From Leucoraja erinacea (lineage: Eukaryota): 64,000 nucleotides of DNA. This document shows, one piece after another, positions 22,912 to 51,018 of this stretch. Where the stretch lies: positions 19,158,001 to 19,222,000 of the forward strand of contig NC_073400.1 of the NCBI RefSeq assembly GCF_028641065.1, read 5' to 3'. Position numbers and translations under genes: made by a program. The notes beneath the pieces were generated by a model that made no database searches, was not told the DNA's origin, and saw nothing but the letters and a program-made list of their open reading frames with translations. Numbering within the stretch: the first letter of the stretch is position 1; the number at the start of each line of letters is the position of its first letter.

Positions 22912-24014
22912 ACCCCCCCCCTCCGTCCCACCACACCAACACCGTTCCGTCTCTCTCTGTCTGTATCTGGGGTCAGTAGATCAGAGACTCCCTCTCCCTA
23001 AACCGCTCCCGCTCCCATTCCATCTCTCTCTCTTTTCTCTCTTATCGTATGCCTCGCTCATTCAATCTCTCTTGTCATACATTTGTGTGTTGTTCTGCCC
23101 TGCCCCTGCCTCCCTCTTTCCTGTCTCCCTTCCCCTTCCTCACCCGTCTCCCTCCCCCACCTACCCCCGTACCTTCCGCACCCCCACTCCCTTCCTCACC
23201 CCCACTCCCTTTCCCAAGCCTCTCCCTCCCTACCCCTCTTCCCTCCCCACCCCTCTTCCTCCCCACCCCTCTCTCCCTCCTCACCCCTCTCCCCTCCGCA
23301 CTCCTCTGTTCCTCACCACCCAGCTCTCCTCTATCCCCCTCTCCATCCTCCCTCCCCTCTCTCCCTCTCCATCCCCACCCCTCTCTCCCTCTCCCCTCTC
23401 CTCTCATCCTCACCACCCATCCTCTCGTTATCCCTCTCTCCATCCCCACCCCCCCCTCCCCCCCCCCCCCCCCCCAACAACCCCCCACCAACACCGTTCT
23501 CTCCCTACCCCACCCATCTCTGTCCCACACGGACCTTGGAGACCGTGCAGAATCCCGCTCCAGACCAGGAGACACATCGGATGCCGTCCCATTGTGGAGA
23601 GGCTGGGCTTGTTCTGAGTGCCTCTGTGAATCAGGCAACAGCCCCTCCCCTCCACCCCTCGACTCTCCTCTTAGTCCTCCCTCCTCTCCCATGCCCTCCA
23701 CTCACGCTCTCTGCTCAACAACTCTGTTGCTCTCTCTGCATCATCGCTCCGTCTCCTGTGCCCTCTGGAACATAAGAGGCTGAGTGAGGAGTGACCATCC
23801 AGGGGTTTATAAAATCATGAGGGTTGTACAAGTCTTTTCACCAGGGAAGGGGAGTTTAAAACCAGAGGACACTGGGTTAAAGCGAGAAGGGGAAGATTTA
23901 AAAGAGAACTGATGGGAAACATTTCCACACTGCGGGCATGGGTGTGTGGAACAGCTGCCTGAGGAGGTGGCAGATTGCATCTCCCCCTCCCCCCCCCCTC
24001 CTCCGCCACTAACA

Positions 24015-24260
24015 CATTTTACACACAGAGAGTGGTGAATCTCTGGAATTCTCTGCCACAGAAGGTAGTTGAGGCCAGTTCGTTGGCTATATTTAAGAGG
24101 GAGTTAGATGTGGCCCTTGTGGCTAATGGGATCAGGGGGTATGGAGAGAAGGCAGGTACAGAATACTGAGTTGGATGATCAGCCATGATCATATTGAATG
24201 GCGGTGCAGGCTCGAAGGGCCGAATGGCCTACTCCTGCACCTATTTTCTATGTTTCTATG
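24015..24260 (+). mobile_element. CR1 3' end at the left boundary of the TSTD1 duplication
   Basis: TQRVVNLWNSLPQ with a (tttctatg)n tail. Confidence 0.9.
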
Positions 24261-24794
24261 TAACACACTTTAGCTCATGTTGCACCACATCCTTTCACCT
24301 GTATGTAATGTCGCCGCATACATTCTGTCCATATCCGCAATCCCTCCAGCCCGACCTCCCCCTCTGTGTAACCAGCTCCCTCTTCATGTCATAGACACAA
24401 AATGCTGGAGCGGCTCAGTCAGAAGTCTGAAGAAGGGTCTCGACCCGAAACGTCACCCGCACATTCTCGCCAGACATGCTGCCCGTCCCGCTAAGTTTCT
24501 CCAGCGTTTTGTGTCTATCTTCGGTGTAAACAAGCATCTGCAGTTCCTTCCTACCGTGTACCTCTCCTCTGCTCAGAAAGCCCCGGCAGCCCCTCCCTAT
24601 CTATAACCCCCCCCAGCACCTAAACCGCTCACTATCTATAATCCCCTCCAGCACCCAACCGGCTAACCCCACTTTATCTCTAATCCCCTCCAGCATCTAA
24701 CCCCCACCCTACAGTATCTCTAGCCTCATCTACCCCTATCTCTTGCCGTCACCCGACATTCCTCTCTTTCTATGCTGTTTGGTTGGGTTGCTAG

Positions 24795-24880
24795 GTACAT
24801 TCCGATCCGCCCCGCCTCTTGCTCGGCTGAATCAAGTGATTCAGAGTCTTTGGACTTCCCTTCGTCAGTGTGTGGTGGCA
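24795..24880 (+). promoter_or_regulatory. Candidate TSTD1 proximal promoter (GC box ccgccccgcc ~24807); duplicate at ~31560-31640
   Basis: Sp1-type motif ~70 bp upstream of the ATG. Confidence 0.45.
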
Positions 24881-26663
24881 ATGGGTTCGACAGGTGAGGC
24901 TCCTTCACACATGCGATGCCCCGGCCCTGCCTCACTGTGTGGGGACCTCTGGGCTGGGGAGGGGAAAAGGAGAGGAGGTGGATGGAAGAGGGGGGGGTGA
25001 GGGGGGGGGGGGGGGGGGGAGGGGGGGGGGGGGGGGGGTGAGAGAGGGGGAATGGGAGGGGGGGGGGGGAGGCAGAGGCGCCAGCAATGGCTGCATCGCC
25101 AACAGCCTGTCTGCCCCTTCCTTCTTTATCGTGTTGATAGCACGCGTTAAATGCATGTTGTTTGTGTTCTTTAGCTTGTGGCTTATTGAGCGTGGGCGGG
25201 GTTGGGGGAAACTTGTTTTTAATATTTTACCCTTTACGGAGATGCGACGCGGATTTACACCGTGGAGCTCCAAGCTGCGGGCGCTGCGACCGCCCCGACG
25301 GATGGTTCGACTGCCCCGACCGCGGGGAAATAAAGACGAAGATGATTGGACTTTATTGCCCTCCATCACAGTGAGGAATGTGGGGAATCTGCTGTGGTGG
25401 ATGTTTATGTTAAATTTGATGTAGTTGTGTGTCGGGGTTTTTTTGGATGGCTGTATGGTAATTCGCAATATCACTGTACCTTAATTGGCACACGTGACAA
25501 TAAAATACCTTTGAATGGGAGAGGGGTAAGGGCTGAAAGGGAATGTGAATATCACGTTGACTGATCTTGTTTGTCTTTTCGCTCCCCCTCTCTCTCCCCT
25601 CCCTCGTCATCCTCTCTTTCTCCCCCTCTCTCCCCATTTTACTCCACTTTCTCACCCCCTCCCTCCCTCCCTCTCCCCATTTCTCTACCCTGTCCTTTCT
25701 TTCCCTCTCCCTTCCTCGCTTCCATTTCCCACTCTCTCTTGCCCCCTCACTCCTCCAACCCTCGCCCCCTCCCTCCTTCACTCTTCCCACCCTCACTCCC
25801 CCTTCCCTCGTCCCTTGCTCACTCCATCGCTTGTCTCTCACTCCATCGCACCCTCTCCCTCGTTCCCCTCCCTCCCTCGCTCCCCGCCCCCCCCCTTCTT
25901 CTGTCACTCCTCCCTTCCTTGCTTCTTGCTCCCCCGACCCCCCCCCCCCCCCATGAGCTGTTGCCCCACTGCCCACAGCGAGCGAGATTACTTGTGAACA
26001 GCTGGAGAGAATGATGGTGGATGGCAGAGTGACCATCTTCGATGTCCGTAACCCGGACGAGCTGGAAAACGGCAGGATCGTTGGATCTGTCAACATTCCA
26101 GGTGCAGAGATCGGGAGAGGGTTTAACTGAGTGGGTTAAACGAGAATGGGTGGAGGGATGAAACGTGATACCAGTCCTGGCCTCTGGCGACAGAAGCTCG
26201 GGCGTGGGTGAGTGGTTGAGATCGTGGGCAGGATTACCTGCTGCCTCCTCTCCGTGCCGTGTGAGTGCAGCTGGAAGAGGCGGTATTAACCCCTCCTCTG
26301 CCTCTCCCCTGCAGTCGACAAGGTGAAGGATGCCTTCTCACTGGACGCGGAGAACTTCCAGGACCAGTTTGGGGCGGAGAAGCCGAAACTGGAATCGATG
26401 GTCGTGTTTTACTGCAAGGCGGGGCGCCGAGGGAACACGGCCGTGACGATCGCCCGGGATCTGGGCTACACCAGGTGGGTGGTTCGAGCGAGGGGGAGCC
26501 CTCCTACCCCGTCCCGTCACTGACACACTCCCGGGGCGAAGCTCCGTCTACACGGTCCCGTCACACACTCCAGGGGCATTTAGTGTTGTGTTCTCTACAT
26601 TGTTCTCTATTTAGGGCCGTGAATGTAATTGGTGGTTTCCAGAAGTGGACTGGCGAAGACTAG
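24881..26663 (+). CDS. TSTD1: Thiosulfate:glutathione sulfurtransferase / single-domain rhodanese, copy 1 (114 aa)
   Basis: Exons 24881-24893, 25979-26101, 26315-26474, 26615-26663, all GT-AG and in frame (345 nt): MGSTASEITCEQLERMMVDGRVTIFDVRNPDELENGRIVGSVNIPVDKVKDAFSLDAENFQDQFGAEKPKLESMVVFYCKAGRRGNTAVTIARDLGYTRAVNVIGGFQKWTGED*. The FDVR, NIP, AEKPKLE, VFYC.. and LGYT motifs match TSTD1, and F11R lies adjacent as in mammals. Confidence 0.93.
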
Positions 26664-26789
26664 GCTGTGTGGGCGGAACGTGAGGATGTTTCCCTGACTG
26701 CATCGTCCGTGGCAACGGCTCACTGGAACCAGGAAACTGACAAAGGATTAAAACTTGCTCAGGGACAGGGTGTGAGTGTACTTCATGTG

Positions 26790-27100
26790 TAGGAATTTAG
26801 GGTTGAGGGTTGGTGTAGGGTTCTAGGCTTAGGGGGTGGAGATTTAGTGGTTGCGAGTTGGTGGCTGTTCCAGGCTTGGGGTAAAGGTTTAAGGGTTGGG
26901 CGCTTTGCCAGGATTTAGGGTGAAAGGGTGTTGGCGGTGCCAGTGTTTAGGGGTGAAGGGTTGGCAGTGCCAGGGTGTAGGGTTTGAAGATTGGCAGTGC
27001 CAGGATATAGGGTTTGAATATTGCCAGTGCCAGGATATAGGGTTTAAAGATTGGCAATGCCGGGGTTTAGGGGTTCGAGGCTGGCTCAGGGGTTAGGGGT
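26790..27100 (+). repeat. Degenerate TTTAGGG-rich tract plus 30-bp tandem repeat (ttggcagtgccaggatatagggtttgaaga); duplicate at ~33570-33845
   Basis: Direct tandem repetition. Copy number differs between the duplicates. Confidence 0.8.
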
Positions 27101-27621
27101 GAAGAGTTGATCCCAGTTTCACATTTGGGAGAGATCGCCTTCCATTTAAAGATGAAACACACGAGTCTGCAGATGCTGGAATCTGGAGCAAGGCGTGACC
27201 TGCTGGAGGAAGGCAGCGAGAGGAGATGCAGTTTCCCAACGGGAGCGTCAGTGTTTATGAATGGAGGGGTTGGTGGTGGGGACTGGGTGAGAGCTCACAG
27301 GCGGGTGGGGGTGAGGCTCAGGCCATAGTTGTGGCGTCTTTGAACGGTGGGATAGGTTGGGGCTGAGTGGCCTCCTGAGGATAATACTGGCGCCAGAACG
27401 AATGGAGGATGATCGGCAGTGCAGCGCAGACGGAGAGCATTCTCCCACGTCGCCGGCATCACAGTTAGACAGGACGGCGATCGCTCGGGTGGGGTTGGGG
27501 GGGGAGTGGGGGCTTTCTGCACCTGGTGGTGCGCGGCTGAAATAAACGCGAGCTTAGGATGTTAATAAAAACCGAACATTGTGTGCAAACACCCATGGTT
27601 TCGACTTATCTCGTCGTTTAA

Positions 27622-27897
27622 TTCTTAAGGGGTTGGACAGGCTAGATGCAGGAAGATTGTTCCCGATGTTGGGGAAGTCCAGGACAAGGGGTCACAGCTT
27701 AAGGATAAGGGGCGAAATCCTTTAAAACCGAGATGAGAATAACTTTTTTCACACAGAGAGTGGAGAATCTCTGGAACTCTCTGCCGCAGAGGGTCGTCGA
27801 GGCCAGTTCATTGGCTATATTTAAGAGGGAGTTAGATGTGGCCCTTGTGGCTAAGGGGATCAGAGGGTATGGAGAGAAGGCAGGTACGGGATACTGA
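27622..27897 (+). mobile_element. Tail-less CR1 fragment occupying a deletion breakpoint
   Basis: ttcttaaggggttggacaggctagatgcagg...ggatactga joins A1 directly to B1. Confidence 0.85.
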
Positions 27898-29159
27898 CCA
27901 CCCCGGGGTCAGCGCTGTCCGGCCACAGCCATCCACCACTCACCCTCCCCCTGTTCGGCCGCACTGTCACGGGCTGTAGGTCGGCAGCGCCCACACATTG
28001 GGCCGGGTGGAGCTGGACCGCGGACACACGGGAACGAAAACCCGGCAATGTCCCCGTCAGCTGCAGCAGAGTTGGGGGACAGTCTGGTCCCTCAGCCCAC
28101 CCAGTCACTGACCGCGCTGCACCGGCACTGGCACCCCGACCCCCACACCGGCACCCTGACCCCCCCCCCCCCCCCCCCCCCCCCCCGGCCGTTGGGACAG
28201 ACAGCTCGAGGTGAGACTGGGGTGGGTAGGGGCAGTCAACGCTTCACGTCAGTACTCTGCACTAACTCCAAGAGTGGAGGAGGGGAGCGTGGGAGTGGGA
28301 GGGGGGAGTGTGCGGTGGGAGGGGACAGTTTGGGATGGGGGGAGGTGGGGGAGCGTGGGAAGATGGGAATGAAGGGAGTGTGGGGGGGGGGTGGGGGGGG
28401 GTGTGGGGAGCAGGAGGAGGTGCGGGTTGGAAGGTGGGAAGTGGAACCAGATGAGGGATGAGGAAGTGAAGGGCAGATGGAAGCAGACTGGTGAGAGGGG
28501 GGGGGGGGGGGGGGGGGAGCAGAACGTCAACACAGGGAGAGAACTGCGGGGTAGAGCAGTGGGAGCAGGAAAATAACACAAGGACGTGGGTGGAAACCCG
28601 CTCCCTCTCGCTCACCCCCCCCCCCCCCCCCCCCCCCCCCACACCCCGCATTCCCGGAAAGCCCCAGAGTTATGCCCTCCTGGTCACGCGTGGGACTGCA
28701 AGTGAAGGGATTTTGCGCAGAACGCAAATGCTGGAGTAACAGCGAGTCAGGCGGCATCTCTCGAGAACGTGGATAGGTGGCGTTTCTTCAGCCCGAAGAT
28801 GGGGCCCGATCCGAATCGTCGCCGAACTACGTCCAGAGACGCTGTCTGACCCGCTCAGTTACTCCAGCGCTCTGTGATCATCTCCCACCAGACTCCACTC
28901 ATTACCTCCTTCCCCATTCTCTCTATTCCGACTCATTCCTTCCTATCTCGACTCCCCTCTGCTCCCTAGACGGACCCACTGTATCCCTCCCTCTCTCTCC
29001 CCCGACTCCTCCCCTCTCTGTCCCAACCCCCGCCCTCTCTTTAGCCCAAATCTCCCATGCCCCTCCTCGTGCGCGTATATATATATATAGAAACATAGAA
29101 ACATAGAAATTAGGTGCAGGAGTAGGCCATTCGGCCCTTCGAGCCTGCACCGATATATA

Positions 29160-29190
<31 letters not shown>

Positions 29191-29614
29191 TTGATCTGTA
29201 TATATGTGAGTATACACATACTGAACTTTTTTTTCTCGTCTATTATTTTGTATTATGTTTATATATCCGGTTGTGGTGTTGAAAGTAACTTGTGACAATA
29301 AAACACTGTCTGAAGAAGGGTCTCGACCCAAAACGTCGCTCATTCCTTCGCTTCATAGATGCTGCTTTTATTTGTGTCTACTTTCGATTTTTCCAGCATC
29401 TGCGGCCAAAGATCATCTCTGTCTGCAGCTAAGATGCTGGAGCAAGAGGTTCCTTCTAAAACATCCAATCAGCTGGGAGATTCCAACATTCTCTTTGTTG
29501 AGCCACCAATCAATCCAGACCGACGTCATTTGTTGATGGGCTGAGGGCCAATCAGCAACAAGCGTTGACCGGTGCCTTGGCCAACAGAGGCCAATCCGTT
29601 TGGGTCTTGCGGTT

Positions 29615-30700
29615 GATCATACAATCAGCTACACTTCTTCCCACCCTGCTTCCTGTAAGGACCCCATCCCCTACTCCCAATTCCTCCGTCTACGCCGCGA
29701 CTGCTCCCAGGATGAGGTGTTCCGCACCAGGGTATTGGAGATGTCCTCATTCTTCAGGGAACAAGAGTTCCCCTCTTCTACCATAGATGAGGCTCTCACC
29801 AGGGTCTCTTCTATACCCCGCGACTCTGCTCTCACTCCCCATCCCCCCCACTCGCAACAAGGGCCGAGTCCCCCTTGTCCTCACCTTCCACCCTACCAGC
29901 CGTCATGTACAACAAATAATCCTCCGTCATTTTCGCCACCTCCAACGTGATCCCACCACTTGCCACATCTTCCCATCTCCTCCCCTGTTTGCTTTCTGCA
30001 GAGACCGCTCCCTCCGTAACTCCCTGGTCAATTTGTCCCTTCCTTCCCAAACCACCCCCTCTCCGGGCACTTTCCATTACAACAGCAAGAAATGCTACAC
30101 TTGTCGCTTTACCTCCCCCCTTGGCTCCATTCAAGGACCCAAGCAGTCTTCCCAGGTGCAGCAGAGGTTCACCTGCACCTCCCCCGACCTCATCTATTAC
30201 ATCCGCTGCTCTAGATGTCAGCTGCTCTACATCGGTGAGACCAAGCGTAGGCTTGGCGATCGCTTTGCCAAACGCCTCTGCTCGGTTTGCAATAACCAGC
30301 CTGATCTCCCGGTGGCTCAGCACTTCAACTCCCCCTCCCATTCTGAATCCGACCTTTCTGTCCTCGGCCTCCTCCATGGCCAGAGTGAGGACCACCGTAA
30401 ATTGGAGGATCAGCATCTCATATTTCGCTTTGGCAGTTTGCACCCCAGCGGTATGAACATTGAGTTCTCCAATTTCAGGTAGTCCCTACTTTCTCCTCCC
30501 CTTCTCAGCTCTCCCTCAGCCCACCGGCTCCTTCTCTTCCTTTGTTCCTCCCACCCCACCCTTACATCAGTCTGAAGAGGGGTTTCAGCCCGAAATGTTG
30601 CCTATTTCCTTCGCTCCATAGATGCTGCCTCACCCACTGAGTTTCTCCAGCATTTTTGTCTACCTTTGATTTTCTAGCATCTGCAGTTCCTTCTTAAAGA
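29615..30700 (+). mobile_element. Penelope-like retroelement 3' part (RT thumb + GIY-YIG endonuclease + terminal repeat), frameshifted
   Basis: YTSSHPASCKDPIPYSQFLRLRR; IYYIRCSRCQLLYIGETKRRLGDRF; SLHPSGMN. Confidence 0.9.
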
Positions 30701-30714
30701 TCTAATCACAACAA

Positions 30715-31057
30715 AATTCTTAAGGGGTTGGACAGGCTAGATGCAGGAAGATTATTCCCGATGTTGGGGAAGTCCAGAACAGGGGGTCACAGTTTAAGGA
30801 TAAGGGGGAAGTCTTTCCGGACCGAGATGAGAAAATCATTTTTTACACAGAGTGGTGAATCTGTGAAAATCTCTGCCACAGAAGGTAGTTGAGGCCAGTT
30901 TATTGGCTATATTTAAGAGGCTCAAGGGATCAGGGGTATGGAGAGAAGGCAGGTACAGGATACTGAGTTGGATGATCAGCCATGATCATTTTGAATGGCG
31001 GTGCAGGCTCGAAGGGCCGAATGGCCTACTCCTGCACCTATTTACTATGTTTCTATG
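30715..31057 (+). mobile_element. Chimeric CR1 3' end at the duplication junction
   Basis: The body shares a diagnostic deletion with the 40066-40410 copy, but the 3' flank matches the 24015-24260 copy. Confidence 0.85.
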
Positions 31058-31639
31058 TAACACACTTTAGCTCATGTTGCACCACATCCTTTCACCTTAT
31101 GTAATGTCGCCGCATACATTCTGTCCATATCCGCAATCCCTCCAGCCCGACCTCTCCCTCTGTGTAACCAGCTCCCTCTTCATGTCATAGACACAAAATG
31201 CTGGAGCGGCTCAGTCAGAAGTCTGAAGAAGGGTCTCGACCCGAAACGTCACCCGCACATTCTCGCCAGAGATGCTGCCCGTCCCGCTAAGTTTCTCCAG
31301 CGTTTTGTGTCTATCTTCGGTGTAAACAGGCATCTGCAGTTCCTTCCTACCGTGTACCTCTCCTCTGCTCAGAAACCCCCGGCAGCCCCTCACTATCTAT
31401 AACCCCCTCCAGCACCCAACCGCTAACCCCACTTTATCTCTAATCCCCTCCAGCATCTAACCCCCACCCTACAGTATCTCTAGCCTCATCTACCCCTATC
31501 TCTTGCCGTCACCCGACATTCCTCTCTTTCTAAGCTGTTTGGTTGGGTTGCTAGGTACATTCCGATCCGCCCCGCCTCTTGTCGGCTGAATCAAGTGATT
31601 CAGAGTCTTTGGACTTCCCTTCGTCAGTGTGTGGTGGCA

Positions 31640-33438
31640 ATGGGTTCGACAGGTGAGGCTCCTTCACCCATGCGATGCCCCGGCCCTGCCTCACTGTGTG
31701 GGGGCCTCTGGGCTGGGGAGGGGAAAAGGAGAGGTGGATAGAAGAGGGGGGGGGGGGGGGGGAGGGGGGGGGGGGGGGAGGAGAGGGGTGAGGGGGAGAG
31801 GGAGGGGGGGAGGAGAGAGGGGGAATGGGAGGGGGGGAGGGAGGGAGAGGCGCCAGCAATGGCTGCATCGCCAACAGCCTGTCTGCCCCTTCCTTCTTTA
31901 TCGTGTTGATAGCACGCGTTAAATGCATGTTGTTTGTGTTCTTTAGCTTGTGGCTTATTGAGCGTGGGCGGGGTTGGGGGAAACTTGTTTTTAATATTTT
32001 ACCCTTTACGGAGATGCGATGCGGATTTACACCGTGGAGCTCCAAGCTGCGGGCGCTGCGACCGCCCCGACGGATGGTTCGACTGCCCCGACCGCGGGGA
32101 AATAAAGACGAAGATGATTGGACTTTATTGCCCTCCATCACAGTGAGGAATGTGGGGAATCTGCTGTGGTGGATGTTTATGTTAAATTTGATGTAGTTGT
32201 GTGTCGGGTTTTTTTGGATGGCTGTATGGTAATTCGCAATATCACTGTACCTTAATTGGCACACGTGACAATAAAATACCTTTGAATGGGAGAGGGGTAA
32301 GGGCTGAAAGGGAATGTGAATATCACGTTGACTGATCTTGTTTGTCTTTTTTCTCCCCCTCTCTCTCCCCTCCCTCGTCATCCTCTCTTTCTCCCCCTCT
32401 CTCCCCATTTTACTCCACTTTCTCACCCCCTCCCTCCCTCTCCCCATTTCTCTACCCTGTCCTTTCTTTCCCTCTCCCTTCCTCGCTTCCATTTCCCACT
32501 CTCTCTTGCCCCCTCACTCCTCCAACCCTCGCCCCCTCCCTCCTTCACTCTTCCCACCCTCACTCCCCTTCCCTCGTCCCTTGCTCACTCCATCGCTTGC
32601 CTCTCACTCCATCGCACCCTCTCCCTCGTTCCCCTCCCTCCCTCGCCTCCCCCGCCCCCCCCCCCTCTTCTGCACTCCCCCCTTTCTTGCTCCCCCCTAT
32701 CCCCCGATCCCCCCCCCCCCCACCCCCCTGAGCTGTTGCCCCACTGCCCACAGCGAGCGAGATTACTTGTGAACAGCTGGAGAGAATGATGGTGGATGGC
32801 AGAGTGACCATCTTCGATGTCCGTAACCCGGACGAGCTGGAAAACGGCAGGATCGTTGGATCTGTCAACATTCCAGGTGCAGAGATCGGGAGAGGGTTTA
32901 ACTGAGTGGGTTAAACGAGAATGGGTGGAGGGGTGAAACGTGATACCAGTCCTGGCCTCTGGCGACAGAAGCTCGGGCGTGGGTGAGTGGTTGAGATCGT
33001 GGGCAGGATTACCTGCTGCCTCCTCTCCGTGCCGTGTGAGTGCAGCTGGAAGAGGCGGTATTAACCCCTCCTCTGCCTCTCCCCTGCAGTCGACAAGGTG
33101 AAGGATGCCTTCTCACTGGACGCGGAGAACTTCCAGGACCAGTTTGGGGCGGAGAAGCCGAAACTGGAATCGATGCTGGTGTTTTACTGCAGGGCGGGGC
33201 GCCGAGGGAACACGGCCGTGACGATCGCCCGGGATCTGGGCTACACCAGGTGGGTGGTCCGAGCGAGGGGGAGCCCTCCTACCCCGTCCCGTCACTGACA
33301 CACTCCCGGGGTGAAGCTCCGTCTACACGGTCCCGTCACACACTCCAGGGGCATTTAGTGCTGTGTTCTCTACATTGTTCTCTATTTAGGGCCGTGAATG
33401 TAATTGGTGGTTTCCAGAAGTGGACTGGCGAAGACTAG
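31640..33438 (+). CDS. TSTD1: Thiosulfate:glutathione sulfurtransferase / single-domain rhodanese, copy 2 (114 aa)
   Basis: Exons 31640-31652, 32754-32876, 33090-33249, 33390-33438. Intact, with active-site region MLVFYCRAGRR. Confidence 0.93.
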
Positions 33439-36400
33439 GCTGTGAGGGCGGAACGTGAGGATGTTTCCCTGATTGCATCGTCCGTGGCAACGGCTCACTG
33501 GAACCAGGAAACTGACAAAGGATTAAAACTTGCTCAGGGACAGGGTGTGAGTGTACTTCATGTGTAGGAATTTAGGGTTGAGGGTTGGTGTAGGGTTCTA
33601 GGCTTAGGGGGTGGAGATTTAGTGGTTGCGAGTTGGTGGCTGTTCTAGGCTTGGGGTAAAGGTTTAAGGGTTGGGCGCTTTGCCAGGATTTAGGGTGAAA
33701 GGGTGTTGGCAATGCCAGGGTATAGGGTTTGAAGATTGGCAGTGCCAGGATATAGGGTTTGAAGATTGACAGTGCCAGGATATTGGGTTTAAAGATTGGC
33801 AATGCCGGGGTTTAGGGGTTCGAGGCTGGCTCAGGGGCTAGAGGTGAAGAGTTGATCCCAGTTTCACGTTTGGGAGAGATCACCTTCCGTTTAAAGATGA
33901 AACACACGAGTCTGCAGATGCTGGAATCTGGAGCAAGGCGTGACCTGCTGGAGGAAGGCAGCGAGAGGAGATGCAGTTTCCCAACGGGAGCGTCAGTGTT
34001 TATGAATGGAGGGGTTGGTGATGGGGAGTGGGTGAGAGCTCACAGGCGGGTGGGGGTGAGGCTCAGGCCATAGATGTGGCGTCTTTGAACGGTGGGATAG
34101 GTTGGGGCTGAGTGGCCTCCTGCGGATAATACTGGCGCCAGAACGAATGGAGGATGGTCGGCAGTGCAGCGCAGACGGAGAGCATTCTCCGACGTCGCCG
34201 GCATCACTGTTAGACAGGACGGCGATCGCTCGGGTGGGGTTGGGGGGGAGTGGGGGCTTTCTGCACCTGGTGGTGCGCGGCTGAAATAAACGCGAGCTTA
34301 GGATGTTAATAAAAACCGAACATTGTGTGCAAACACCCATGGTTTCGACTTATCTCGTCGTTTAACAGGTTGGAGGGAGGGGACTGGTAAGAGGAGAGGG
34401 AGGGAGTGAAGCTGAAAGAGGGAGAGAGAAAAAAAGTAAGAATGTCAGGGAAAGTGAAGGGGGAGGGCAGAGCAAGTGTGAGTGAAAGGAGCGTCAGTGA
34501 AGGAGAAGTGTAGTGAGCGAGGGAGAGTGAGAGTCGGAGAAAAAGCGAAAGCGAGTGACAACGTGAGGGGGAGAGAGGGGCCGCATTTAGAGTATAATAT
34601 TCAGCTTTTGCCACTCTGTTATATGAAGTATGCCATTAAACTGGAAAGGGCGCAGAGAAGATTTACGAGGGTGTTGCCAGGTCTCAAGGTCCTGATCTAC
34701 AGGGAGATGTTGTGCAGAATTGGATTTTATCCTTTGGAGCGCGCGGATGAAGGATGATGTTATAGAGGTGTATAAGATAACGAGGGGAATAGATGGGATG
34801 AATGCAGAGTATTTTACTCAGAATAGGGGAATGAAGAACCAGAGGACACAGGTTTCAGGCGAGGGGGGGAAATGTTAATAGGAACCTGAGGGGAAACGTG
34901 TTCACACAGAGGGTGAATGATATATGGTATAAGCAGCCAGAGGAGGTAGTTGGGATAGACATGGACAGGTACAGGGATAGTAAGGGATGAGAGTGGGGGT
35001 AAATGGGATTAGTTTAGATGGGGTGCCTTGGTGGCATGGATGAGTTGGGCTGAAGGGCCTGTTTTGGTGCTGAGATTCTATGGCTCTGAGAGAGAGGGAT
35101 GGAGAGTGAGAACTAATGGGAAAGAGCGAGACGGAATGAGAGAAAGGACACGGGAGGTAGAGTGCATTGATGAGGTAGTGATAAAGGGGAGAGAGGAGGA
35201 GGGAGAAAGAATGAGAATGCTCAACTGGGGTAAGGCCAACTTTGAGGGTATGAGAGAAGGTGTCGATCAAGTTGACTGGTGCAGGTTATTAGAAGGGAAA
35301 GGAACATCGGCCAAGTGGGATGTTTTTAAAAGTGTACTGAAGAAAGCTCAGGCTGTGTACGTCCCTGCTAGAGTGAAGAGCAAATTGCATGTAAATAGAT
35401 TTTATTTATTGAAATCATATTCCATGTCGCTCTTCCAGGCAGATGCTAACTGCATTTCGTTGTCTCTGTACTGTACACTGACAATGACAATTAAAGTTGA
35501 ATCTGAATCTGAATCTGAATCTGAATCTGAATTAAAGCAGGCAAACGTAAGGAAGCTTGGCTGATGATGGAAATTGAGACGTTAGTGAAAAACAAGGAGT
35601 TGAGGGAGCATCACCTGATATTATGCCTCTGCCAGAAGAATTTCGGCGGGTGGCACAGTCCCACCATGCCGGTCTCCTCTCCCTTGACTCCCGGCCACTG
35701 ACTGAGGCGTTTTCTCCTGGCAGGTGAGAGTTAGCTCTGATTGATGGGCCGAAGGGCCTGCTTGCCTGCTGTAGCACAATGTGGCCCACTGACCACCTCA
35801 GTCCCTCCAGCACCGTCAGCTTTGCATTGGACTCAGGAAGAGGTCCCCTCAGTCCAAGGTCTTCCTTCGCCAATGGGAACAATGGGACCCTGGACCATGC
35901 CCATTCCCCGGGCGCGGCAACCAGTCACAACGCAAAACACTCCGACCTTCTCCTGCCTCCTCTGATCAGATCGAACCAACCTCCGCTCCATGTCTGCCAA
36001 TCTATTATAGAGTCATTCAACATGGAAACAGGCCCTTCAGCCCAACTTGCCCACACCGACCAACATGTCCCATCTACACTTGTCTCACCTGCCTGCATCT
36101 GACCCATATACCTCTAAACCTGGCCTGTCCATGTTCCTGTCTAAATATTTCTTAAAACATTGCAATAGTACCTGCCTCGTCTACCTCTTCCGGCAGCCCG
36201 TTCTATACACCCTCCACACTTTTTGTAAAAAAAAAAAATCACCCCTCACGCCCTATTAAGTCTCTCCCTCCACCCCCTCACCTGTGTCTCCTGGTTCTCA
36301 ATCCCACTACTTTGGACTTTCGAGACCCGATCTACTGCTCTCGTGAATTTGTACACCAAAGACTTGTTTCAGCCCCTCAAGTCCTGCCAACTTCCTCGTA

Positions 36401-37990
36401 AATCTTCTCTGAACCCTTTCCAGCTCAACAACATTTTCCCCATAACATGGTGCCCGAAACTCAACACGATGCTCTAAACATGGCCTCACCAATGTCTTAT
36501 TTAACTGCAACATGACCTCCCCACTTCTATACGCAATATTTTGAAGAAGGAACTGCAGATGCTAGAAAATCGAAGGTAGACAAAAATGCTGGAGGAACTC
36601 AGCGGTTGAGGCAGCATCTATGGAGCGAAGGAAATAGGATACGTTTCGGGTCGAATAAGGGTTTGAAGAAGGGTTTCGACCCAAAATGTTGCCTATTTCC
36701 TTTCTTGACCCTATCAACCTGTGATGCCACTTTCAAGGAACTACTGCATGTACCTGCACTCCTGGATCCCTCTGCTCTACAATACTCCCCAGAGGCCTAC
36801 CATCCACTGTGCAGATCCAGCCTATGGGGGGTAAATGTTTGTGTCCGGTGACTGAGCGCTCTGAACCAAATGCTCTAGTATCTTTGCTCTGAAGCCGAGC
36901 ACTGTATAAGCGGCCGAAGGAGCGCATCCCCCGGGACAGCCCGCACTCTCCACCCCGGGGTCAGCGCTGTCCGGCCACAGCCATCCACCACTCACCCTCC
37001 CCCTGTTCGGCCGCACTGTCACGGGCTGTAGGTCGGCAGCGCCCACACATTGGGCCGGGTGGAGCTGGACCGCGGACACACGGGAACGAAAACCCGGCAA
37101 TGTCCCCGTCAGCTGCAGCAGAGTTGGGGGACAGTCTGGTCCCTCAGCCCACCCAGTCACTGACCGTGCTGCACCGGCACTGGCACCCCGACCCCTACAC
37201 CGGCACCCTGACCCCCCCCCCCCCCCCCCCTGTTCGGCCGCGGGGACAGACGGCCGAGGTCCGCGAGTGTGGAACAATCAGCCTGGAGTCCGGAGCTGGG
37301 CAGAAGATGGGCCTGCTGTACTGGCAACCATAATAAGCGCTTACCTGACGTTCACCGTTTGTGCTCCAGAAGGCGTTGTATGGCAACAGTACGGGTCACG
37401 GGTTGTGACCTCGACTGCCGTGCAACCTCCCTATTAAATTCCATCAACAATTCTGGAAACATCAGGCCTATCGATCAAGACCCTGCTGCAAGTTTTTTTA
37501 TATCCATCTTAAATATCTACAATATCACCCACCTTTTGAGTCATCTGCAAACGTTTGTGCAAGAGCACTTGGACGATTCAACTTCTGCCATACTTGTGTG
37601 GTCATCTTATGACAATGAGACTGGGGTGGGTAGGGGCAGTCAACGCTTCACGTCAGTACTCTGCACTAACTCCAAGAGTGGAGGAGGGGAGCGCGGGAGT
37701 GGGAGGGGGGAGTGTGCGGTGGGAGGGGGGGGGAGTGGGATGGGGGGTGGTGGGGGAGCGTGGGAAGATGGGAATGGGGAGTGTGGGGGGGGGGGGGGGG
37801 GGGGGGGGGAGCAGGAGGAGGTGCGGATTGGAAGGTGGGAAGTGGAACCAGATGAGGGACGAGGAAGTGAAGGGCAGATGGAAGCAGACTGGTGAGAGGG
37901 GAGGGGGGGGTGGAGCAGAACGTGAGCACAGGGAGAGAACTGCGGGGTAGAGCAGTGGGAGCAGGAAAATAACACAAGGAACGCGGGTGG

Positions 37991-38027
<37 letters not shown>

Positions 38028-38974
38028 ACCCACCCCGCATTCCGGAAAGCCCAGAGTTATGCCCCTCCTGGTCACGCGTGGGACTGCAAGTGAAGGGATT
38101 TTGCGCAGAACGCAAATGCTGGAGTAACAGCGAGTCAGGCGGCATCTCTCGAGAACGTGGATAGGTGGCGTTTCTTCAGCCCGAAGATGGGGCCCGATCC
38201 GAATCGTCGCCGAACTACGTCCAGAGACGCTGTCTGACCCGCTCAGTTACTCCAGCGCTCTGTGATCATCTCCCACCAGACTCCACTCATTACCTCCTTC
38301 CCCCTTCTCTCTATCCCGACTCATTCCTTCCTATCTCGACTCCTCCTCTTTTATAGCTTCGCTATAAGATCTTTGCCCTAGACCCACTGTATCCCTCCCT
38401 CTCTCTACCCCGACTCCTCCCCTCTCTGTCCCAACCCCCGCCCTCTCATTATCCCAAATCTCCCATGCCCCTCCTCATGCGCGTATATACATATATATAT
38501 ACATACACACACATACATATATTTGATCTGTATATATGTGAGTATACACATACTGAACTTTTTTTTCTCGTCTATTATTTTGTACTATGTTTATATATCC
38601 GGTTGTGGTGCTGCAAGTAACTTGTGACAATAAAACACTGTCTGAAGAAGGGTCTCGATCCAAAACGTCGCCCATTCTTTCTCTCCATAGATGCTGCCTC
38701 ACTCCCTGAGTTACTCCAGCTTTTATTTGTGTCTACTTTCGATTTTTCCAGCATCTGCGGCCAAAGATCATCTCTGTCTGCAGCTAAGATGCTGGAGCAA
38801 GAGGTTCCTTCTAAAACATCCAATCAGCTGGGAGATTCCAACGTTCTCTTTGTTGAGCCACCAATCAATCCAGGCCGACGTCATTTGTTGATGGGCTGAG
38901 AGCCAATCAGCAGCAAGCGTTGACCGGTGCCTTGGCCAACAGAGACCAATCCGCTTGGGTCTTGCGGTTGATCA

Positions 38975-40050
38975 TACAATCAGCTACACTTCTTCCCACC
39001 CTGCTTCCTGTAAGGACCCCATCCCCTACTCCCAATTCCTCCGTCTACGCCGCATCTGCTCCCAGGATGAGGTGTTCCGCACCAGGGTATTGGAGATGTC
39101 CTCATTCTTCAGGGAACAGGAGTTCCCCTCTTCTACAATAGATGTGGCTCTCACCAGGGTCTCTTCTATACCCCGCGACTCTGCTCTCACTCCCCATCCC
39201 CCCCACTCGCAACAAGGGCCGAGTCCCCCTTGTCCTCACCTTCCACCCTACCAGCCGTCATGTACAACAAATAATCCTCCGTCATATTCACCACCTCCAA
39301 CGTGACCCCACCACTCGCCACATCTTCCCATCTCCTCCCCTGTTTGCTTTCCGCAGAGACCGCTCCCTCCGTAACTCCCTGGTCAATTTGTCCCTTCCTT
39401 CCCAAACCACCCCCTCTCCGGGCACTTTCCCTTACAACCGCAAGAAATGCTACACTTGTTGCTTTACCTCCCCCCTTGGCTCCATTCAAGGCCCCAAGCA
39501 GTCTTTCCAGGTGCAGCAGAGGTTCACCTGCACCTCCCCCGACCTCATCTATTACATCCGCTGCTCTAGATGTCAGCTGCTCTACATCGGTGAGACCAAG
39601 CGTAGGCTTGGCGATCGCTTTGCCAAACGCCTCTGCTCGGTTTGCAATAACCAACCTGATCTCCCGGTGGCTCAGCACTTCAACTCCCCCTCCCATTCTG
39701 AATCCGACCTTTCTGTCCTCGGCCTCCTCCATGGCCAGAGTGAGGACCACCGTAAATTGGAGGAGCAGCACCTCATATCTCGCTTTGGCAGTTTGCACCC
39801 CAGCGGTACATTGACTTCTCCAATTTCAGGTAGTCCCTACTTTCTCCTCCCCTTCTCAGCTCTCCCTCAGCCCACGGGTTCCTTCTCTTCCTTTCTTCCT
39901 CCCACCTCACCCTCACATCAGTCTGAAGAGGGGTTTCAGCCCGAAATGTTGCCTATTTTCTTCGCTCCATAGATGCTGCCTCACCCACTGAGTTTCTCCA
40001 GCATTTTTGTCTACCTTTGATTATCTAGCATCTGCAGTTCCTTCTTAAAG
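38975..40050 (+). mobile_element. Penelope-like retroelement, duplicated copy
   Basis: Same motifs as 29615-30700. Confidence 0.9.
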
Positions 40051-40065
40051 ATCTAATCACAACCA

Positions 40066-40410
40066 AATTCTTAAGGGGTTGGACAGGCTAGATGCAGGAA
40101 GATTATTCCCGATGTTGGGGAAGTCCAGAACAAGGGGTCACAGTTTAAGGATAAGGGGGAAGTCTTTCCGGACCGAGAATGGAAAAAATCATTTTTTACA
40201 CAGAGTGGTGAATCTGTGAAAATCTCTGCCAGAGAAGGTAGTTGAGAACAGTTTATTGGCTATATTTAAGAGGCTCAAGGGATCAAGTGTATGGAGAGAA
40301 GGCAGGTACAGGATACTGAGTTGGATGATCAGCCATGATCATTTTGAATGGCGGTGCAGGCTCGAAGGGGCGAATGGCCTACTCCTGCACCTATTGTCTA
40401 TGTTTCTATG
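40066..40410 (+). mobile_element. CR1 3' end at the right boundary of the duplication
   Basis: CR1 terminal motif and (tttctatg)n tail. Confidence 0.9.
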
Positions 40411-40424
40411 TTTCTAAGTTTTTG

Positions 40425-40755
40425 TAGACCGGAACCAATCAGCTGCTGGATCTGCCCCGCCGCAGCTGTCCAATCACAGCCTTTCTCCACTGACGGTCGG
40501 CGCTTGGCCAGCTAATCATCGTCGAGCTGCTACTTCTGGCGAATCACAGCCTCCCCCTCCCGCAGAGCGGCAGCTCTAGCGGCCAATTGACCGAGTCCTG
40601 TGGGAGGCCGACCAATGGGAAGCAGGCAGGAAGTGTAGGCAGCCAATGGGACAGGGGTTACCTGGGCAGGTGAGGGCGGGGCTTGGGTCAGGTGTGGCCG
40701 CGAGGGGGACGTTGCCCTCATTGGCGCCGCGTCCTTGTCTGCTGCCTGCAACAAG
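40425..40755 (+). promoter_or_regulatory. F11R proximal promoter: multiple CCAAT boxes, Ets site, GC box
   Basis: CCAAT at ~40435, 40470, 40583, 40612, 40643 and ATTGG ~40720; caggaagtg ~40627; gggcggggc ~40674. CpG-rich and directly 5' of the ATG. Confidence 0.7.
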
Positions 40756-43800: not shown

Positions 43801-46800
43801 GACGTGGAGAGGATGTTTGCACTAGTGGGAGAGTCTAGGACTAGAGGTCATAGCCTCAGAATTAAAGGACGTTCTTTTAGGAAGGAGATGCGAAGGAATG
43901 TATTTAGTCAGAGTATGATGAATCTGTGGAATTAATTGCAGAAGGCTGTAGAGGCCAAGTCAGTGGATATTCTTAAAGCAGAGATAGATAGATTCTTGAT
44001 TAGTACAGGTGTCAGAGGTTATGGGGAGAAGGCAGGAGTAAGGAGTTTGGAGGGAGAGATAGATCAGCCATGATTGAATGGTGGAGTAGATTTGATGAGC
44101 CAAATTCTACTCCTATTCCTTATGAACCTTCTCTTCGAACTTGCCCGAGTTAAACTTCATCTGCCATACCTTTGCCCACAATCTAAATCCTTCTGTCACC
44201 TTAGACAGCCATCTTTGTTGTGCATCACCTCACACTAATAGTCATTCACAAAGTTGTTGAGGGTGCCACCTACATTCTTATACAAATCATTCATATAGAT
44301 GACAAGCAATAGTGGACCCAGCAGTGACCCCATGTGAATGCCTGTGGTCACAGGCCAATAGTCTGCGGCTGTTTACAACCCAGCGGTATGAATATTGATA
44401 TCTCTAACTTCAAGTAACCCTTGTTTTCCCTGGGTCCCTGCCCCTCCCCCAGCCTAGTTCTCTGACTCGTTTCACTGTCCTTCTGATTAATTTTACTGTG
44501 CGTGCCTCATTGTGACTTTCCCCTCAGCTAATGTAGAACCATTCTACATTTCCTTGATCACCGTCTGCTTTAATCTGTTGTTTTCACACCTTGCCCCTCC
44601 CTAGCTCTAGACTTCCTCTCCCCTGACTCTCAGTCTGATGAAGGATCTCGACCCGAAGCGTCAGCTATTCCTTCTTTCCAGAGATGCTGCCGGTCCCGCT
44701 GAGTTACTCCAGCACTTAGTGTCTGACTTTAATTACAAGAATAGTACATTCCACTGAGGCAATACACAAAGTGAGTCACCACTTTTCAACCACCATCTTG
44801 TATCTCTCAATTTCAAAGTTGTTAAAAATGTTTCTGAGTCTTCACCTGAAGTGTCCTGGTGGTGCCTCTGGGGTGGAGGGGCATGCTGGGCCTGACCAGG
44901 CAACATTGCCGAACCCCTGCCGTTATGTCGAATACACATACTCAGCCTGGCAGTGGCACCCGATCGAATCTAATCCCCGCGGGGGCTGCTGCAGGGTCTC
45001 CAACAGGCCACTCCATCAATGCAACAATGCGGGCACATCCACCCCCTTCAGCCTCTGTGCCTCGGGGCATCGCCCACGACCAACCTCAACACCCAGCGCC
45101 TCTCAGCCCACAGGAGGTGAGCTGCCAGCCCCCTCATCGACAGCACTCCCCTGCTGGGGTGTCAGTTTCAGTGGCCCAGTCCTGGGTTTCGGTGTGTGGG
45201 TGTGTGTGAGTGCGAGTGGGTAGGTGTGCAAATGGGTGTGTGTGTTAGTGGGAGGGTGAATTTTGTAAATGCCCAGTTAAAGCCATTAGATCTGTGGAAC
45301 TCGTTAACAGAGTACAGACTTGGTGACCTGTTTCCAAATGTTTGTGTTAGCTTAAGAATACTGTTAACAGTTCCAGCAACAGCAGCTTCTGCAGAGAGGT
45401 CATTTAGCAAACGCAAGCTGATTAAGAATTAATTAATGTCTCAGGAATGTCGTGTGGATTTGGCCAGGCTAAGTATTGAATCAAACATTGCCAGAACAAT
45501 AGATTTTCATGCTGTGATTCGAAATCTTTCACAAAAAAAGGACAGGAAAGCTCTTTATTTAAAGTAAATACTAAGCATATCTACCTTCTTTTAGATTTTA
45601 CTAATAATGATGTATTCTGATGATCTGATCTACATTGAAATATAAAGGGAAGTTCAATGTGAATTCTTTCTCCTTATCTGTATTGTAGGATAAACAAGGA
45701 TGTTCAAAACAAATGTGCTTCATTCTTTCTGATCCCTTTATTTATATTTATCATGGAGGGAAGTATAGGAGCATCAGGCCTCAAATGCAGAAAATCAGCA
45801 GAGCGCTCCATTCCACCCCTCTCTCATCTTCCTTTTTGCTTCTCGAGCTACAGCTCATGGCATCAAACTGTAGTGGATAAAAACAGGATGACTAGTGGAG
45901 AAGGGAAGGGGGCCCGAAAGAAACTTTGTACCCACTGATAAAATTCCTCGCAGAAGCCCTGGTCTGTCCGGTGCTCTGGGAGAGAGAGAGACGGGACAAT
46001 GACCAGAGATGTAAGAGGGTTGGCTTGCAGGGAAAGAGATTGTGAAATCGGAGTTGTGTGTCTGGTTTTGCAGAGAGCGAGGGACAGCGTGGGCGTGAGA
46101 TGTGGCTCCACAATAGTTAATGCTCACCTTAGTCTTGTGATCAGGAAATTCTTGTTCAGCTGCATTCCTGAGGGTGTGGCTTTCAGGGAGAGAGAAAGAG
46201 AGCAAGGGAGGGAGGGAGAGAGAGGGAGGGACTGAGAGGGGAGGAATATCACAGCATGAATCTTCTGTCAGCACATTCCCAGTCAGTGTACACGTATCCC
46301 TTTGTGTGAGAGAGAGAGAGGGAGACACCTGTCTGTGTCCCTCCGTAAGTCCCTGGTCAATTCGTCCCTTTCTACCCAAACCACCCCCTCCCCGGGTAAT
46401 TTCCCCTGAAACCGCTGGAAATGCTACACTTGTCACTTTACCTCCAGCTTCGACTCCATCCAAGAATCAGTCTTTCCAGGTGAGGCAGAGGTTCACCTGC
46501 ATCTCCTCCAGCCTCATCAACTGCATCCGCTGTTCCAGGCGCCAACTTCTCCACAATGGCAAGGCCAAGCGCAAGCTCGGCGATCGCTTCGCCCAACACC
46601 TCCACTCAGTTCGTATTAAGCAACCCGATCTCCCGGTTGCTCAGCACTTCAACTACCCTTCCCATTCCCAATCTGACTTTTCTGTCCTGGGCCTCATCCA
46701 TTGAGTGAGGCCCAGTGCAAATTGGAGAAACAGCACCTAATATTTCGGTTTGGTAGTTTACACCCCGGCGGTATGAACGTTGACTTCTCTAATTTTAGAT

Positions 46801-49800: not shown

Positions 49801-51018
49801 CCACAGAAGGTAGTTGAGGCCAGTTCATTGGCTATATTTAAGAGGGAGTTAGATGTGGTCCTTGTGGTTAAAGGGATCAGGTGGTATGAAGAGAAGGCAG
49901 GTACAGGATACTGAGTTGGATGATCATCCATGATCAGCATAGGCGGTGCATGCTCGAAGGGCCGAATGGCCTACTCCTGCCCCAATTTTTCTATGTTTCT
50001 ATTCATGCAATTTGTCTCATCGTTCTTCAATATCCAGCCTCCACAGTCGTGCATCTGATAATTTCCAAATTTACCATATGTAGAGTAGAATTTAGCCACA
50101 CTGTGTATAGATATCCCCCTGATTGAGGGAGAGAGGGACTGAAAGACACCAGTCGGTGTACAGATATCCCCATGATCGAGAGAGAAGACTGAGAGACACC
50201 GATCATGTACAGATTATGTATTGAGAAGCTTTTTGTCACGCACTGTCCCTCACCCACACTCTGCAAGTCCGTGCACTCTGGGCCAGAGCTGCTGCCATAC
50301 CAGGTTGTGATGCATCTTGAGAGGATGCTTTCTCTGGTTTGGTTTAGTTTAGAGATCTTGTGCGGAGTCCGTGCCAACCAGTGATCCCCGCACATTAACA
50401 CTATATTACACACATTAAGGACAATTTCCAATTTTACCATGCCAATAAACCTACAAACTGTATGTCTTTGGAGTGTGTGATGAAACCGGAGCACCCGGAG
50501 AAAACCCACGCAGGTAACAGGGAGAACGCACATACTCCATATAGACAGCTCCCGCAGTCGGGTTCAAACCCGTGTCTCTGGTTACTGTAAGACAGCAACT
50601 CTACCGCTGCACCACCATGCTGCCACCTGCACCGTGGTGCATCTGTAGCAATCAGTAATTGGACGATCCTTCGTCTTATGAGGAAGCAGAAGTATTGGTG
50701 GGTGGCTATTTGTTGGTGATATTTATAGCAAGCAACTTGAAACTTTCAACTATCTCTATTTCAGCACCATTGATGCAGTCTGGGTCTGGAGTCCACCTGC
50801 TTCCTGCACTGTCACCGGCTCCTTGGTTTGGATGATATTGAGGGACAGGTTATTGTTTTGACACCATGATACTAAACACTCTGTCTCATTCCTGTACTTT
50901 GTCTCATTATTCTTCAATATCCAGCCCTCCACGGTTGTCATATTTAGAGCTGTTAATTTTCAAATTATTTAGAGCATAATTTGGCCACAGAGTGTGTGTA
51001 TAAATATATATATATCTC

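What the first reader, a model, noticed from the sequence alone, without database searches (positions are those of the whole stretch)
24015..40410. TSTD1 tandem duplication with a chimeric CR1 junction, pointing to unequal crossover between LINE ends
Seen: the order is CR1a-A1-B1-CR1j-A2-X-B2-CR1b. The junction element (30715-31057) has the left flank and internal markers of CR1b (deletion giving atttaagaggctcaaggg; cattttgaatgg), but the right flank of CR1a (taacacactttagctc). Established: this chimeric signature is what non-allelic homologous recombination between direct repeats leaves. Inference: a ~9.3-kb unit containing the whole TSTD1 gene was duplicated this way, giving two intact genes.
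Basis: partly seen in the sequence, partly recalled or inferred. Interest (0 to 1): 0.7.

Follow-up and report, generated by a model that had tools for sequence, protein, structure and literature searches.

The report
Retrotransposon-joined tandem TSTD1 duplication in skate
A skate chromosome carries two intact, side-by-side copies of a small sulfur-handling enzyme gene (TSTD1) joined by a hybrid retrotransposon fragment; it is likely a real duplication, probably carried by only some chromosomes and made by recombination between two repeats, which is an ordinary kind of event.

Summary
Observation confirmed. Two intact four-exon TSTD1 copies (114 aa; V75/K80 versus L75/R80) lie in tandem. The element between them matches CR1b up to 31016 and CR1a from 30991, which gives a 26-bp junction window. 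Both diagnostic markers occur exactly twice in the 2.19-Gb genome. Corrections: copy 1 is 6.8 kb, not 9.3 kb, because it lost 2.6 kb, now filled by an unnoticed fourth CR1 piece; and the homology is too short to call classical NAHR established. The proteins are identical to little-skate RefSeq proteins. Copy divergence (1.4-2.4%) is close to the species' reported heterozygosity (1.6%), so a false haplotype duplication was a serious rival. In the best DNA run, copy-1 versus copy-2-type alleles run about 1:2, and the spacer missing from copy 1 is itself heterozygous. That fits three gene copies, not two or four. Two related organisms look single-copy. Best reading: a real, probably polymorphic, repeat-mediated duplication that likely joined two existing alleles. 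No contig bridged the junction, depth data are noisy, and copy-2 expression was not seen. Ordinary kind of event.

The parts
24017..24260 (+). CR1a: 5'-truncated LINE 3' end, flanked by a 7-bp target-site duplication (24010-24016, 24261-24267); left recombination substrate
   Evidence: the CR1 family name rests on recalled motif likeness, not on a repeat library
24261..27621 (+). A1: first copy of the gene-bearing segment
24881..26663 (+). TSTD1 copy 1; coding exons 24881-24893, 25979-26101, 26315-26474, 26615-26663; 114 aa, V75/C79/K80; same sequence as XP_055510627.1
   Evidence: introns 2 and 3 spliced in 3 of 3 RNA-type runs laid
27620..27897 (+). CR1m: separate CR1 fragment, cut at both ends, no tail, standing where X (2584 bp) is missing from copy 1; begins about 50 bp after the last AATAAA (27564)
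27898..30714 (+). B1: first copy of the spacer; lacks 356 bp and 23 bp of B2, carries a 76-bp reverse CR1 tail (29077-29152), a CCAAT cluster (29465-29591) and a GIY-YIG-bearing retroelement piece
30715..31057 (+). CR1j: chimeric junction element, CR1b-type 5' part and CR1a-type end
30991..31016 (+). 26-bp junction window identical in CR1a, CR1j and CR1b (outer bound 30991-31057 if CR1b's later differences are private)
31058..34365 (+). A2: second copy of the gene-bearing segment
31640..33438 (+). TSTD1 copy 2; coding exons 31640-31652, 32754-32876, 33090-33249, 33390-33438; 114 aa, L75/C79/R80; same sequence as XP_055510628.1
34366..36949 (+). X: ancestral spacer, present only behind copy 2; joined to A in runs X1 and X15; heterozygous at 34543/34546 in X1
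36950..40065 (+). B2: second (ancestral-length) copy of the spacer
40066..40416 (+). CR1b: LINE 3' end with a private 22-bp deletion; right recombination substrate, just upstream of the JAM-A/F11R-like gene

Best explanation
Two intact TSTD1 genes lie in tandem around a hybrid CR1 element, and they likely form a real, probably polymorphic duplication made when the 3' ends of two CR1 repeats 9.35 kb apart mis-paired, probably between the two homologous chromosomes, so that two already different alleles were placed side by side. Shown: the chimeric element, the 26-bp shared window, two open genes, and an ancestral state with X and the 356-bp piece present. Inferred from depth: three gene copies in run X1, that is one duplicated and one single-copy chromosome. 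Inferred from divergence and allele reshuffling: the 1.4-2.4% difference is largely old allelic difference and not the age of the duplication. Not resolved: meiotic unequal crossover versus a homology-guided template switch. The likely effect is at most extra dosage of a thiosulfate sulfurtransferase; copy 2 sits behind a new upstream neighbourhood and its expression is untested.
For: Chimera markers each occur 2 times genome-wide. CR1a keeps a 7-bp target-site duplication, so the shared right flank is CR1a's own site. No assembly gap between the copies. Run X1, copy-1: copy-2-type allele depths at 3 of 3 sites where both are listed: 11.3:22.3, 9.9:26.4, 6.1:11.1; pooled 27 of 87, p=0.0005 against 1:1 and p=0.73 against 1:2 (depths treated as counts). 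X, absent from copy 1, shows two alleles in X1 (13.7 of 24.6 at 34543/34546) and has no close second copy among the 20 candidates scored, so three haplotypes are needed. A three-copy model fits 11 selected depths (chi2 10.2, df 10), while two-haplotype (27.5, df 9) and four-copy (28.0, df 10) models do not; it stays best on 20 rows (log-likelihood -83.5 vs -99.6 and -91.6). Organisms B and D show A and X at similar depth (69 vs 57-68; 32-46 vs 36-45), and the 90% protein cluster holds two little-skate proteins but one thorny-skate sequence. For allele capture: species heterozygosity is 1.56-1.6% (PMC10115646, passages); over 570 bp the copies differ at 8 sites but each differs from organism B at 6; RNA contigs of other samples reshuffle the variants (L75+K80 on a copy-1-like UTR in X11, V75+K80 on another UTR in X5).
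Against: No listed contig bridges B1-CR1j-A2, or any copy-1-only join (A1-CR1m, CR1m-B1, the 356-bp deletion); the piece tables were cut. The copy count rests on one run, whose sample may not be the assembled animal or even one animal. With all 20 rows the depths are 4- to 5.6-fold overdispersed, which shrinks the margin to about 4 and 2 log units. One X site does not fit 1:1 (35707: 10.1 of 35.4). Four structural changes lie in copy 1's spacer, and B is more diverged than A (58/2420 vs 39/2868, p=0.005), which also fits an older duplication with later decay or conversion. Contig bubble-popping can create the reshuffled RNA haplotypes.
Confidence: 0.62

Rival explanations
1. Real but old duplication from one allele: the copies diverged afterwards, copy 1's spacer decayed, gene conversion kept A more alike than B, and single-copy chromosomes arise by secondary collapse (or the duplication is fixed).
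For: Loss of X, loss of 356 bp, loss of 23 bp and a CR1 tail insertion are all in copy 1's spacer, and X and the 356 bp are ancestral. A is less diverged than B (p=0.005; non-CpG sites p=0.04). Copy-copy distance exceeds the distance to organism B over 570 bp. X1's collapsed contig carries copy-1 states at 33259-33646 and copy-2 states further 3', as a collapse product could.
Against: The four-copy model fits X1 badly. Organisms B and D look single-copy although B is as close to each copy as the copies are to each other. Organism A transcripts share variants with organism B (26902, 26934), which points to deep allelic variation. Heterozygosity alone covers most of the divergence.
Confidence: 0.2
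2. False heterotype duplication: the assembler placed the animal's two alleles in tandem and joined them through the CR1 end.
For: Copy divergence is about the species' heterozygosity. False heterotype duplications favour heterozygous regions and can be joined by wrong gap filling (PMC9516828, passages); a published little-skate assembly used noisy long reads and gap filling. Copy-1-specific contigs sit at about single-allele depth, and the junction was not bridged.
Against: Allele depths are about 1:2, not 1:1. X would be hemizygous but shows two alleles. Shared A depth (26-35) exceeds flank depth (4-25) in X1. There is no gap between the copies. The join is base-exact and in register inside a 26-bp window, which an overlap assembler has little reason to produce (inference). 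The same paper notes allele-specific true tandem duplications with haploid depth in one contig.
Confidence: 0.15

Closest known systems
Transposable-element-mediated rearrangements by homology (TEMR-HR; Alu/Alu and L1/L1), PMC9675761 (passages read)
   Same: Two same-direction elements flank the segment; the junction rebuilds one chimeric element in register; the 26-bp window is near the reported medians (17 bp for TEMR-HR, 34 bp for LINE-1); the size lies inside the 93 bp-25 kb range.
   Different: The substrates are short CR1-type 3' ends in a cartilaginous fish, and the product holds a whole gene whose copies differ by 1.4-2.4%.
Heterogeneous gene duplications, e.g. in insecticide-resistant mosquitoes, PMC6121789 (abstract read)
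   Same: Two different versions of one locus on one chromosome, apparently still polymorphic.
   Different: No known selective agent or overdominance here; the two protein changes are conservative; allelic origin is inferred.
Human TSTD1, single-domain rhodanese (PDB 6BEV; PMC10135228, passages read)
   Same: One Rhodanese domain; best PDB hit 6BEV at E=7e-23; four exons; DxR and CxxGxR motifs; 114 vs 115 aa; a JAM-A/F11R-like neighbour (the human neighbourhood is recalled).
   Different: Loop CKAGRR / CRAGRR versus human CQMGKR; two copies here; activity not tested.
False heterotype duplication, PMC9516828 (passages read)
   Same: Tandem copies at allele-level divergence, annotated as two '-like' genes.
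   Different: No gap between the copies, 1:2 allele depth, and a heterozygous spacer that needs a third haplotype.

Membership tests
TEMR-HR (repeat-mediated rearrangement) | Related elements in direct orientation at both breakpoints | tested here: met
   CR1a and CR1b both on +, 247-column alignment with 18 mismatches and 3 gaps
TEMR-HR (repeat-mediated rearrangement) | Junction rebuilds one chimeric element in register | tested here: met
   three-way alignment; each marker 2 times genome-wide
TEMR-HR (repeat-mediated rearrangement) | Homology of 5 bp or more at the junction | tested here: met
   26 bp, 30991-31016
TEMR-HR (repeat-mediated rearrangement) | Junction confirmed in reads or by PCR | tested here: inconclusive
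   only contigs could be laid; none listed bridges the junction
Classical NAHR | More than 100 bp of perfect identity between the substrates (PMC9675761) | tested here: not met
   longest perfect CR1a-CR1b run today is 30 bp; the last 67 bp are near-identical
False heterotype duplication | Both copies at single-allele depth (1:1) | tested here: not met
   27 of 87 pooled, p=0.0005 against 1:1; one run, noisy depths
False heterotype duplication | Assembly gap between the copies | tested here: not met
   no N between 10702 and 62758; a filled gap would not show
False heterotype duplication | Discordant or missing read pairs across the join | not testable with these tools
   no raw DNA reads among the 24 runs listed
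Heterogeneous (two-allele) duplication | Both versions also segregate as single-copy alleles | tested here: inconclusive
   reshuffled variants in RNA contigs X5 and X11 and a third haplotype in X1; copy number of those samples unknown
Heterogeneous (two-allele) duplication | Heterozygote advantage of the two versions | not testable with these tools
   no phenotype or population data
TSTD1 single-domain rhodanese | One Rhodanese domain with catalytic CxxGxR loop and DxR motif | tested here: met
   PF00581 at E=4.6e-19 and 1.6e-18; motifs visible; motif names from PMC10135228
TSTD1 single-domain rhodanese | Four-exon gene, closest to human TSTD1 | tested here: met
   best of 18 PDB matches for copy 1 is 6BEV
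TSTD1 single-domain rhodanese | Thiosulfate sulfurtransferase activity | not testable with these tools
   needs an assay
CR1 LINE | 3' end of a CR1-clade element (end of ORF2, 3' UTR, short-unit tail) | tested here: inconclusive
   very high-copy family; loose ends continue into further LINE sequence; 8-bp-unit tail; an RT frame lies nearby. No repeat library was available; clade name is recalled likeness

The most novel reading that the evidence does not exclude
A still-segregating Haldane-type heterogeneous duplication in a cartilaginous fish: CR1 mis-pairing locked two old TSTD1 alleles together. All three coding differences are amino-acid-changing and lie in or beside the catalytic loop (V75L, K80R). 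R80 is shared with thorny skate and K80 with two other related organisms, so balancing selection on sulfur or sulfide handling may have kept both alleles and may favour the duplicate.
Probability: 0.07. Interest if true: 0.65.

Novelty: new member of a known kind. Interest (0 to 1): 0.3.

Why it matters
If real, it is a base-resolved example of a short CR1-type repeat pair duplicating a whole gene in a cartilaginous fish, the counterpart of Alu/Alu rearrangements in people. It also warns that in a genome with about 1.6% heterozygosity the divergence between tandem copies cannot date a duplication or tell a true one from a false one, and that the two annotated little-skate TSTD1-like genes may be a copy-number variant and not a species trait. 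One search for TSTD1+skate+duplication found 0 papers, and one for CR1+ectopic recombination+gene duplication+chimeric+LINE listed 4 papers whose titles are reviews or overviews (listing only). The library lacks most subscription papers. The mechanism itself is well known.

Tried and rejected
Direct test of the junction: both lays were on contigs only. Repeats swamped the 18.5-kb lay (417 difference rows and 725,896 pieces not shown). In the 3.1-kb lay no listed X1 piece covered 27264-27575 or the A1-CR1m join (8,721 pieces not shown); holes prove nothing. No holder was on record as RNA; three RNA-guess runs were laid and all three are spliced. None of the three shows G at 26417 (R80), but contigs drop variants, so this is no evidence that copy 2 is silent. 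Run X13 (organism C) was too low and patchy to count copies. CR1j as an independent insertion of a deletion-bearing subfamily: rejected, the marker occurs only twice. X as an insertion in copy 2: rejected, A joins X in organism D. Fixed four-copy state in X1: disfavoured. The depth fit used 11 rows that I selected; one search added the other 11 X1 rows that I read off and fits all models worse. A search for a USF1-type bHLH gene upstream found nothing (Pfam on 97 plus-strand frames; recalled motifs); short exons could be missed. PMC13343379 (2 passages) gave nothing to confirm the CR1 name. Translating window:49622-49915 in one frame was uninformative. Two look-ups of earlier findings were empty. 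No supplements were read.
Full report
1. Anatomy. A self-comparison and pairwise alignments show two long direct repeats in 24-40.4 kb. A1 (24261-27621) matches A2 (31058-34365) with 57 substitutions in 3280 columns. B1 (27898-30714) matches B2 (36950-40065) with 71 in 2702. Outside low-complexity sequence the figures are 39/2868 (1.4%) and 58/2420 (2.4%). The order is CR1a-A1-CR1m-B1-CR1j-A2-X-B2-CR1b. Copy 1 is therefore 6797 bp and copy 2 is 9353 bp. There is no N between 10702 and 62758.

2. The junction is a true chimera. CR1j has CR1b's left flank, its 22-bp deletion and T30990, and CR1a's right flank. A 25-mer across the deletion occurs 2 times in the 2.19-Gb genome and a 24-mer across tail plus flank occurs 2 times, each time only at the expected pair. 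CR1a has a 7-bp target-site duplication, so that flank is its own insertion site. CR1j is identical to CR1b over 30936-31016 and to CR1a over 30991-31043, leaving a 26-bp window identical in all three. If CR1b's later differences are private, the switch can lie anywhere up to 31057. The name CR1 is recalled likeness; no repeat library was on hand.

3. The genes. Each A holds four coding exons with GT-AG introns and an open 114-aa frame. A DNA search of the genome with exons 2-4 gives only these two full matches. The proteins have the same sequences as little skate XP_055510627.1 and XP_055510628.1. Both are single Rhodanese domains, and the best of 18 PDB matches is human TSTD1, 6BEV. Human TSTD1 is a four-exon, 115-aa thiosulfate sulfurtransferase, and loop composition is thought to set specificity (PMC10135228, passages). 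The three coding differences all change amino acids: V75L (two bases) and K80R, next to catalytic C79. Thorny skate has L75/R80; organisms B and D and a Logan protein have L75/K80; human has Q and yeast A at the K/R position, so it is tolerant. The downstream gene is JAM-A/F11R-like, the neighbour in human too (recalled).

4. Real or assembly error? A little-skate specimen was reported at 1.56-1.6% heterozygosity, in an assembly built from noisy long reads with gap filling (PMC10115646, passages). Copy divergence is of that size, so a false heterotype duplication (PMC9516828, passages) had to be tested. Whether run X1 is the assembled animal is not known. In X1 both alleles are listed at three A sites, with copy-1: copy-2-type depths 11.3:22.3, 9.9:26.4 and 6.1:11.1. 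Pooled as counts this is 27 of 87: p=0.0005 against 1:1, p=0.73 against 1:2. X, which copy 1 lacks, shows two alleles at 34543/34546 (13.7 of 24.6), and no close second copy of that stretch came up among 20 candidates. Two haplotypes cannot give this. On 11 rows that I selected, three copies fit (chi2 10.2, df 10), two haplotypes (27.5, df 9) and four copies (28.0, df 10) do not. On 20 rows three copies remain best (log-likelihood -83.5 vs -99.6 and -91.6), but depths are 4- to 5.6-fold overdispersed, and site 35707 (10.1 of 35.4) does not fit. Against: no listed contig bridges the junction or any copy-1-only join, the tables were cut, and this is one run. I put a real duplication at about 0.8.

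5. Related organisms. In organism B the collapsed A contig (depth 69.2) matches X contigs (56.9-67.9). In organism D, A (32-46), X (36-45), B (40) and flank (47) are alike, and one contig bridges A-X. Organisms C and D hold the 356-bp piece that B1 lacks. They look single-copy and show that copy 1 carries the derived losses. The 90% protein cluster has 4 members: two little-skate proteins, one thorny-skate sequence and one Logan fragment.

6. Transcripts. 3 of 3 RNA-type runs laid show both downstream introns spliced. X3's 1071-base contig follows copy 1 at 21 of 21 exonic or UTR substitutions that separate the copies and at the 30-bp indel, with one private difference, so the copy-1 haplotype exists and is transcribed in another sample. 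X5 has V75/K80 on a different 3' UTR, X11 has L75/K80 on a copy-1-like UTR, and both share variants with organism B (26902; X5 also 26934). None shows R80; contigs drop variants, so copy-2 expression is open.

7. Mechanism. Shown: an in-register switch from CR1b to CR1a inside short homology. This is the pattern of homology-driven transposable-element-mediated rearrangements, whose junction homology is mostly under 40 bp and below the >100 bp quoted for classical NAHR (PMC9675761, passages). Inferred: the exchange was between homologous chromosomes, because copies made recently from one chromatid would be near-identical, whereas these differ at the level of alleles, differ from each other (8 of 570 bp) as much as from organism B (6 of 570), and their variants are reshuffled in other samples. 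That makes unequal crossover the simplest reading and gives a heterogeneous duplication in the sense of PMC6121789 (abstract). A homology-guided template switch between homologs is not excluded. The rival is an old duplication with later decay: four structural changes sit in copy 1's spacer and B is more diverged than A (p=0.005; non-CpG p=0.04). CR1m, tailless and paired with a 2.6-kb loss, resembles endonuclease-independent LINE insertions associated with target deletions (PMC1920257, abstract); an ordinary insertion followed by a deletion fits as well.

8. Consequence. Both copies keep the ATG exon, about 600 bp upstream of it and the AATAAA signals. Copy 2 lost everything upstream of CR1a's end and instead follows B1, which holds a CCAAT cluster whose twin lies in front of the F11R-like gene. 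A possible splice acceptor at 24867-24868 could mean an upstream non-coding exon outside the unit; this is untested. The likely effect is extra dosage or none.

9. Verdict. Observation confirmed; interpretation partly supported. A new member of a known kind. One paper search for TSTD1+skate+duplication found nothing; earlier scan notes were empty. Interest 0.3.

Noticed in passing
window 27620-27897: Tailless CR1 fragment replacing 2584 bp in copy 1, with a 2-bp overlap at its left join; it starts at the same point of the element as CR1b although it is a different copy (no 22-bp deletion, 90% like the copy at 49638-49914).
   Followed up: partly
window 29077-29152: 76-bp insertion, mostly a reverse-strand CR1 tail, inside an AT microsatellite of B1 and absent from B2.
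   Followed up: partly
window about 29640-30570 and 39000-39920: Retroelement piece with a GIY-YIG-type motif at 30228 and 39583, probably Penelope-like (recalled; no Pfam hit). It and CR1b separate two CCAAT clusters in front of the F11R-like gene.
   Followed up: partly
window 29465-29591, 38820-38946, 40435-40643: Clusters of 4, 4 and 5 CCAAT boxes; the duplication puts one cluster about 2 kb upstream of TSTD1 copy 2.
   Followed up: no
window 24867-24868: Pyrimidine run plus AG just upstream of the ATG exon; may be a splice acceptor for a non-coding first exon.
   Followed up: no
window 40756 to about 55350, + strand: JAM-A/F11R-like gene: signal-peptide-like first exon read by eye, Ig exons at 53669-54446 and a transmembrane-like exon near 55020-55349.
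   Followed up: partly
window 1-1035, + strand: Open frame with several C2H2 zinc fingers, running off the window start.
   Followed up: no
window 6591-7115 and 58810-59306: Two inverted copies (84%) of an element with a weak DDE_3 hit (58757-59029); also a hAT dimerisation hit at 45121-45429 and an RT frame at 48291-49259.
   Followed up: no
window 35707: Run X1 shows an alternative allele at 10.1 of depth 35.4 in X, which does not fit the 1:1 split seen at 34543/34546; overlapping contigs may explain it.
   Followed up: no
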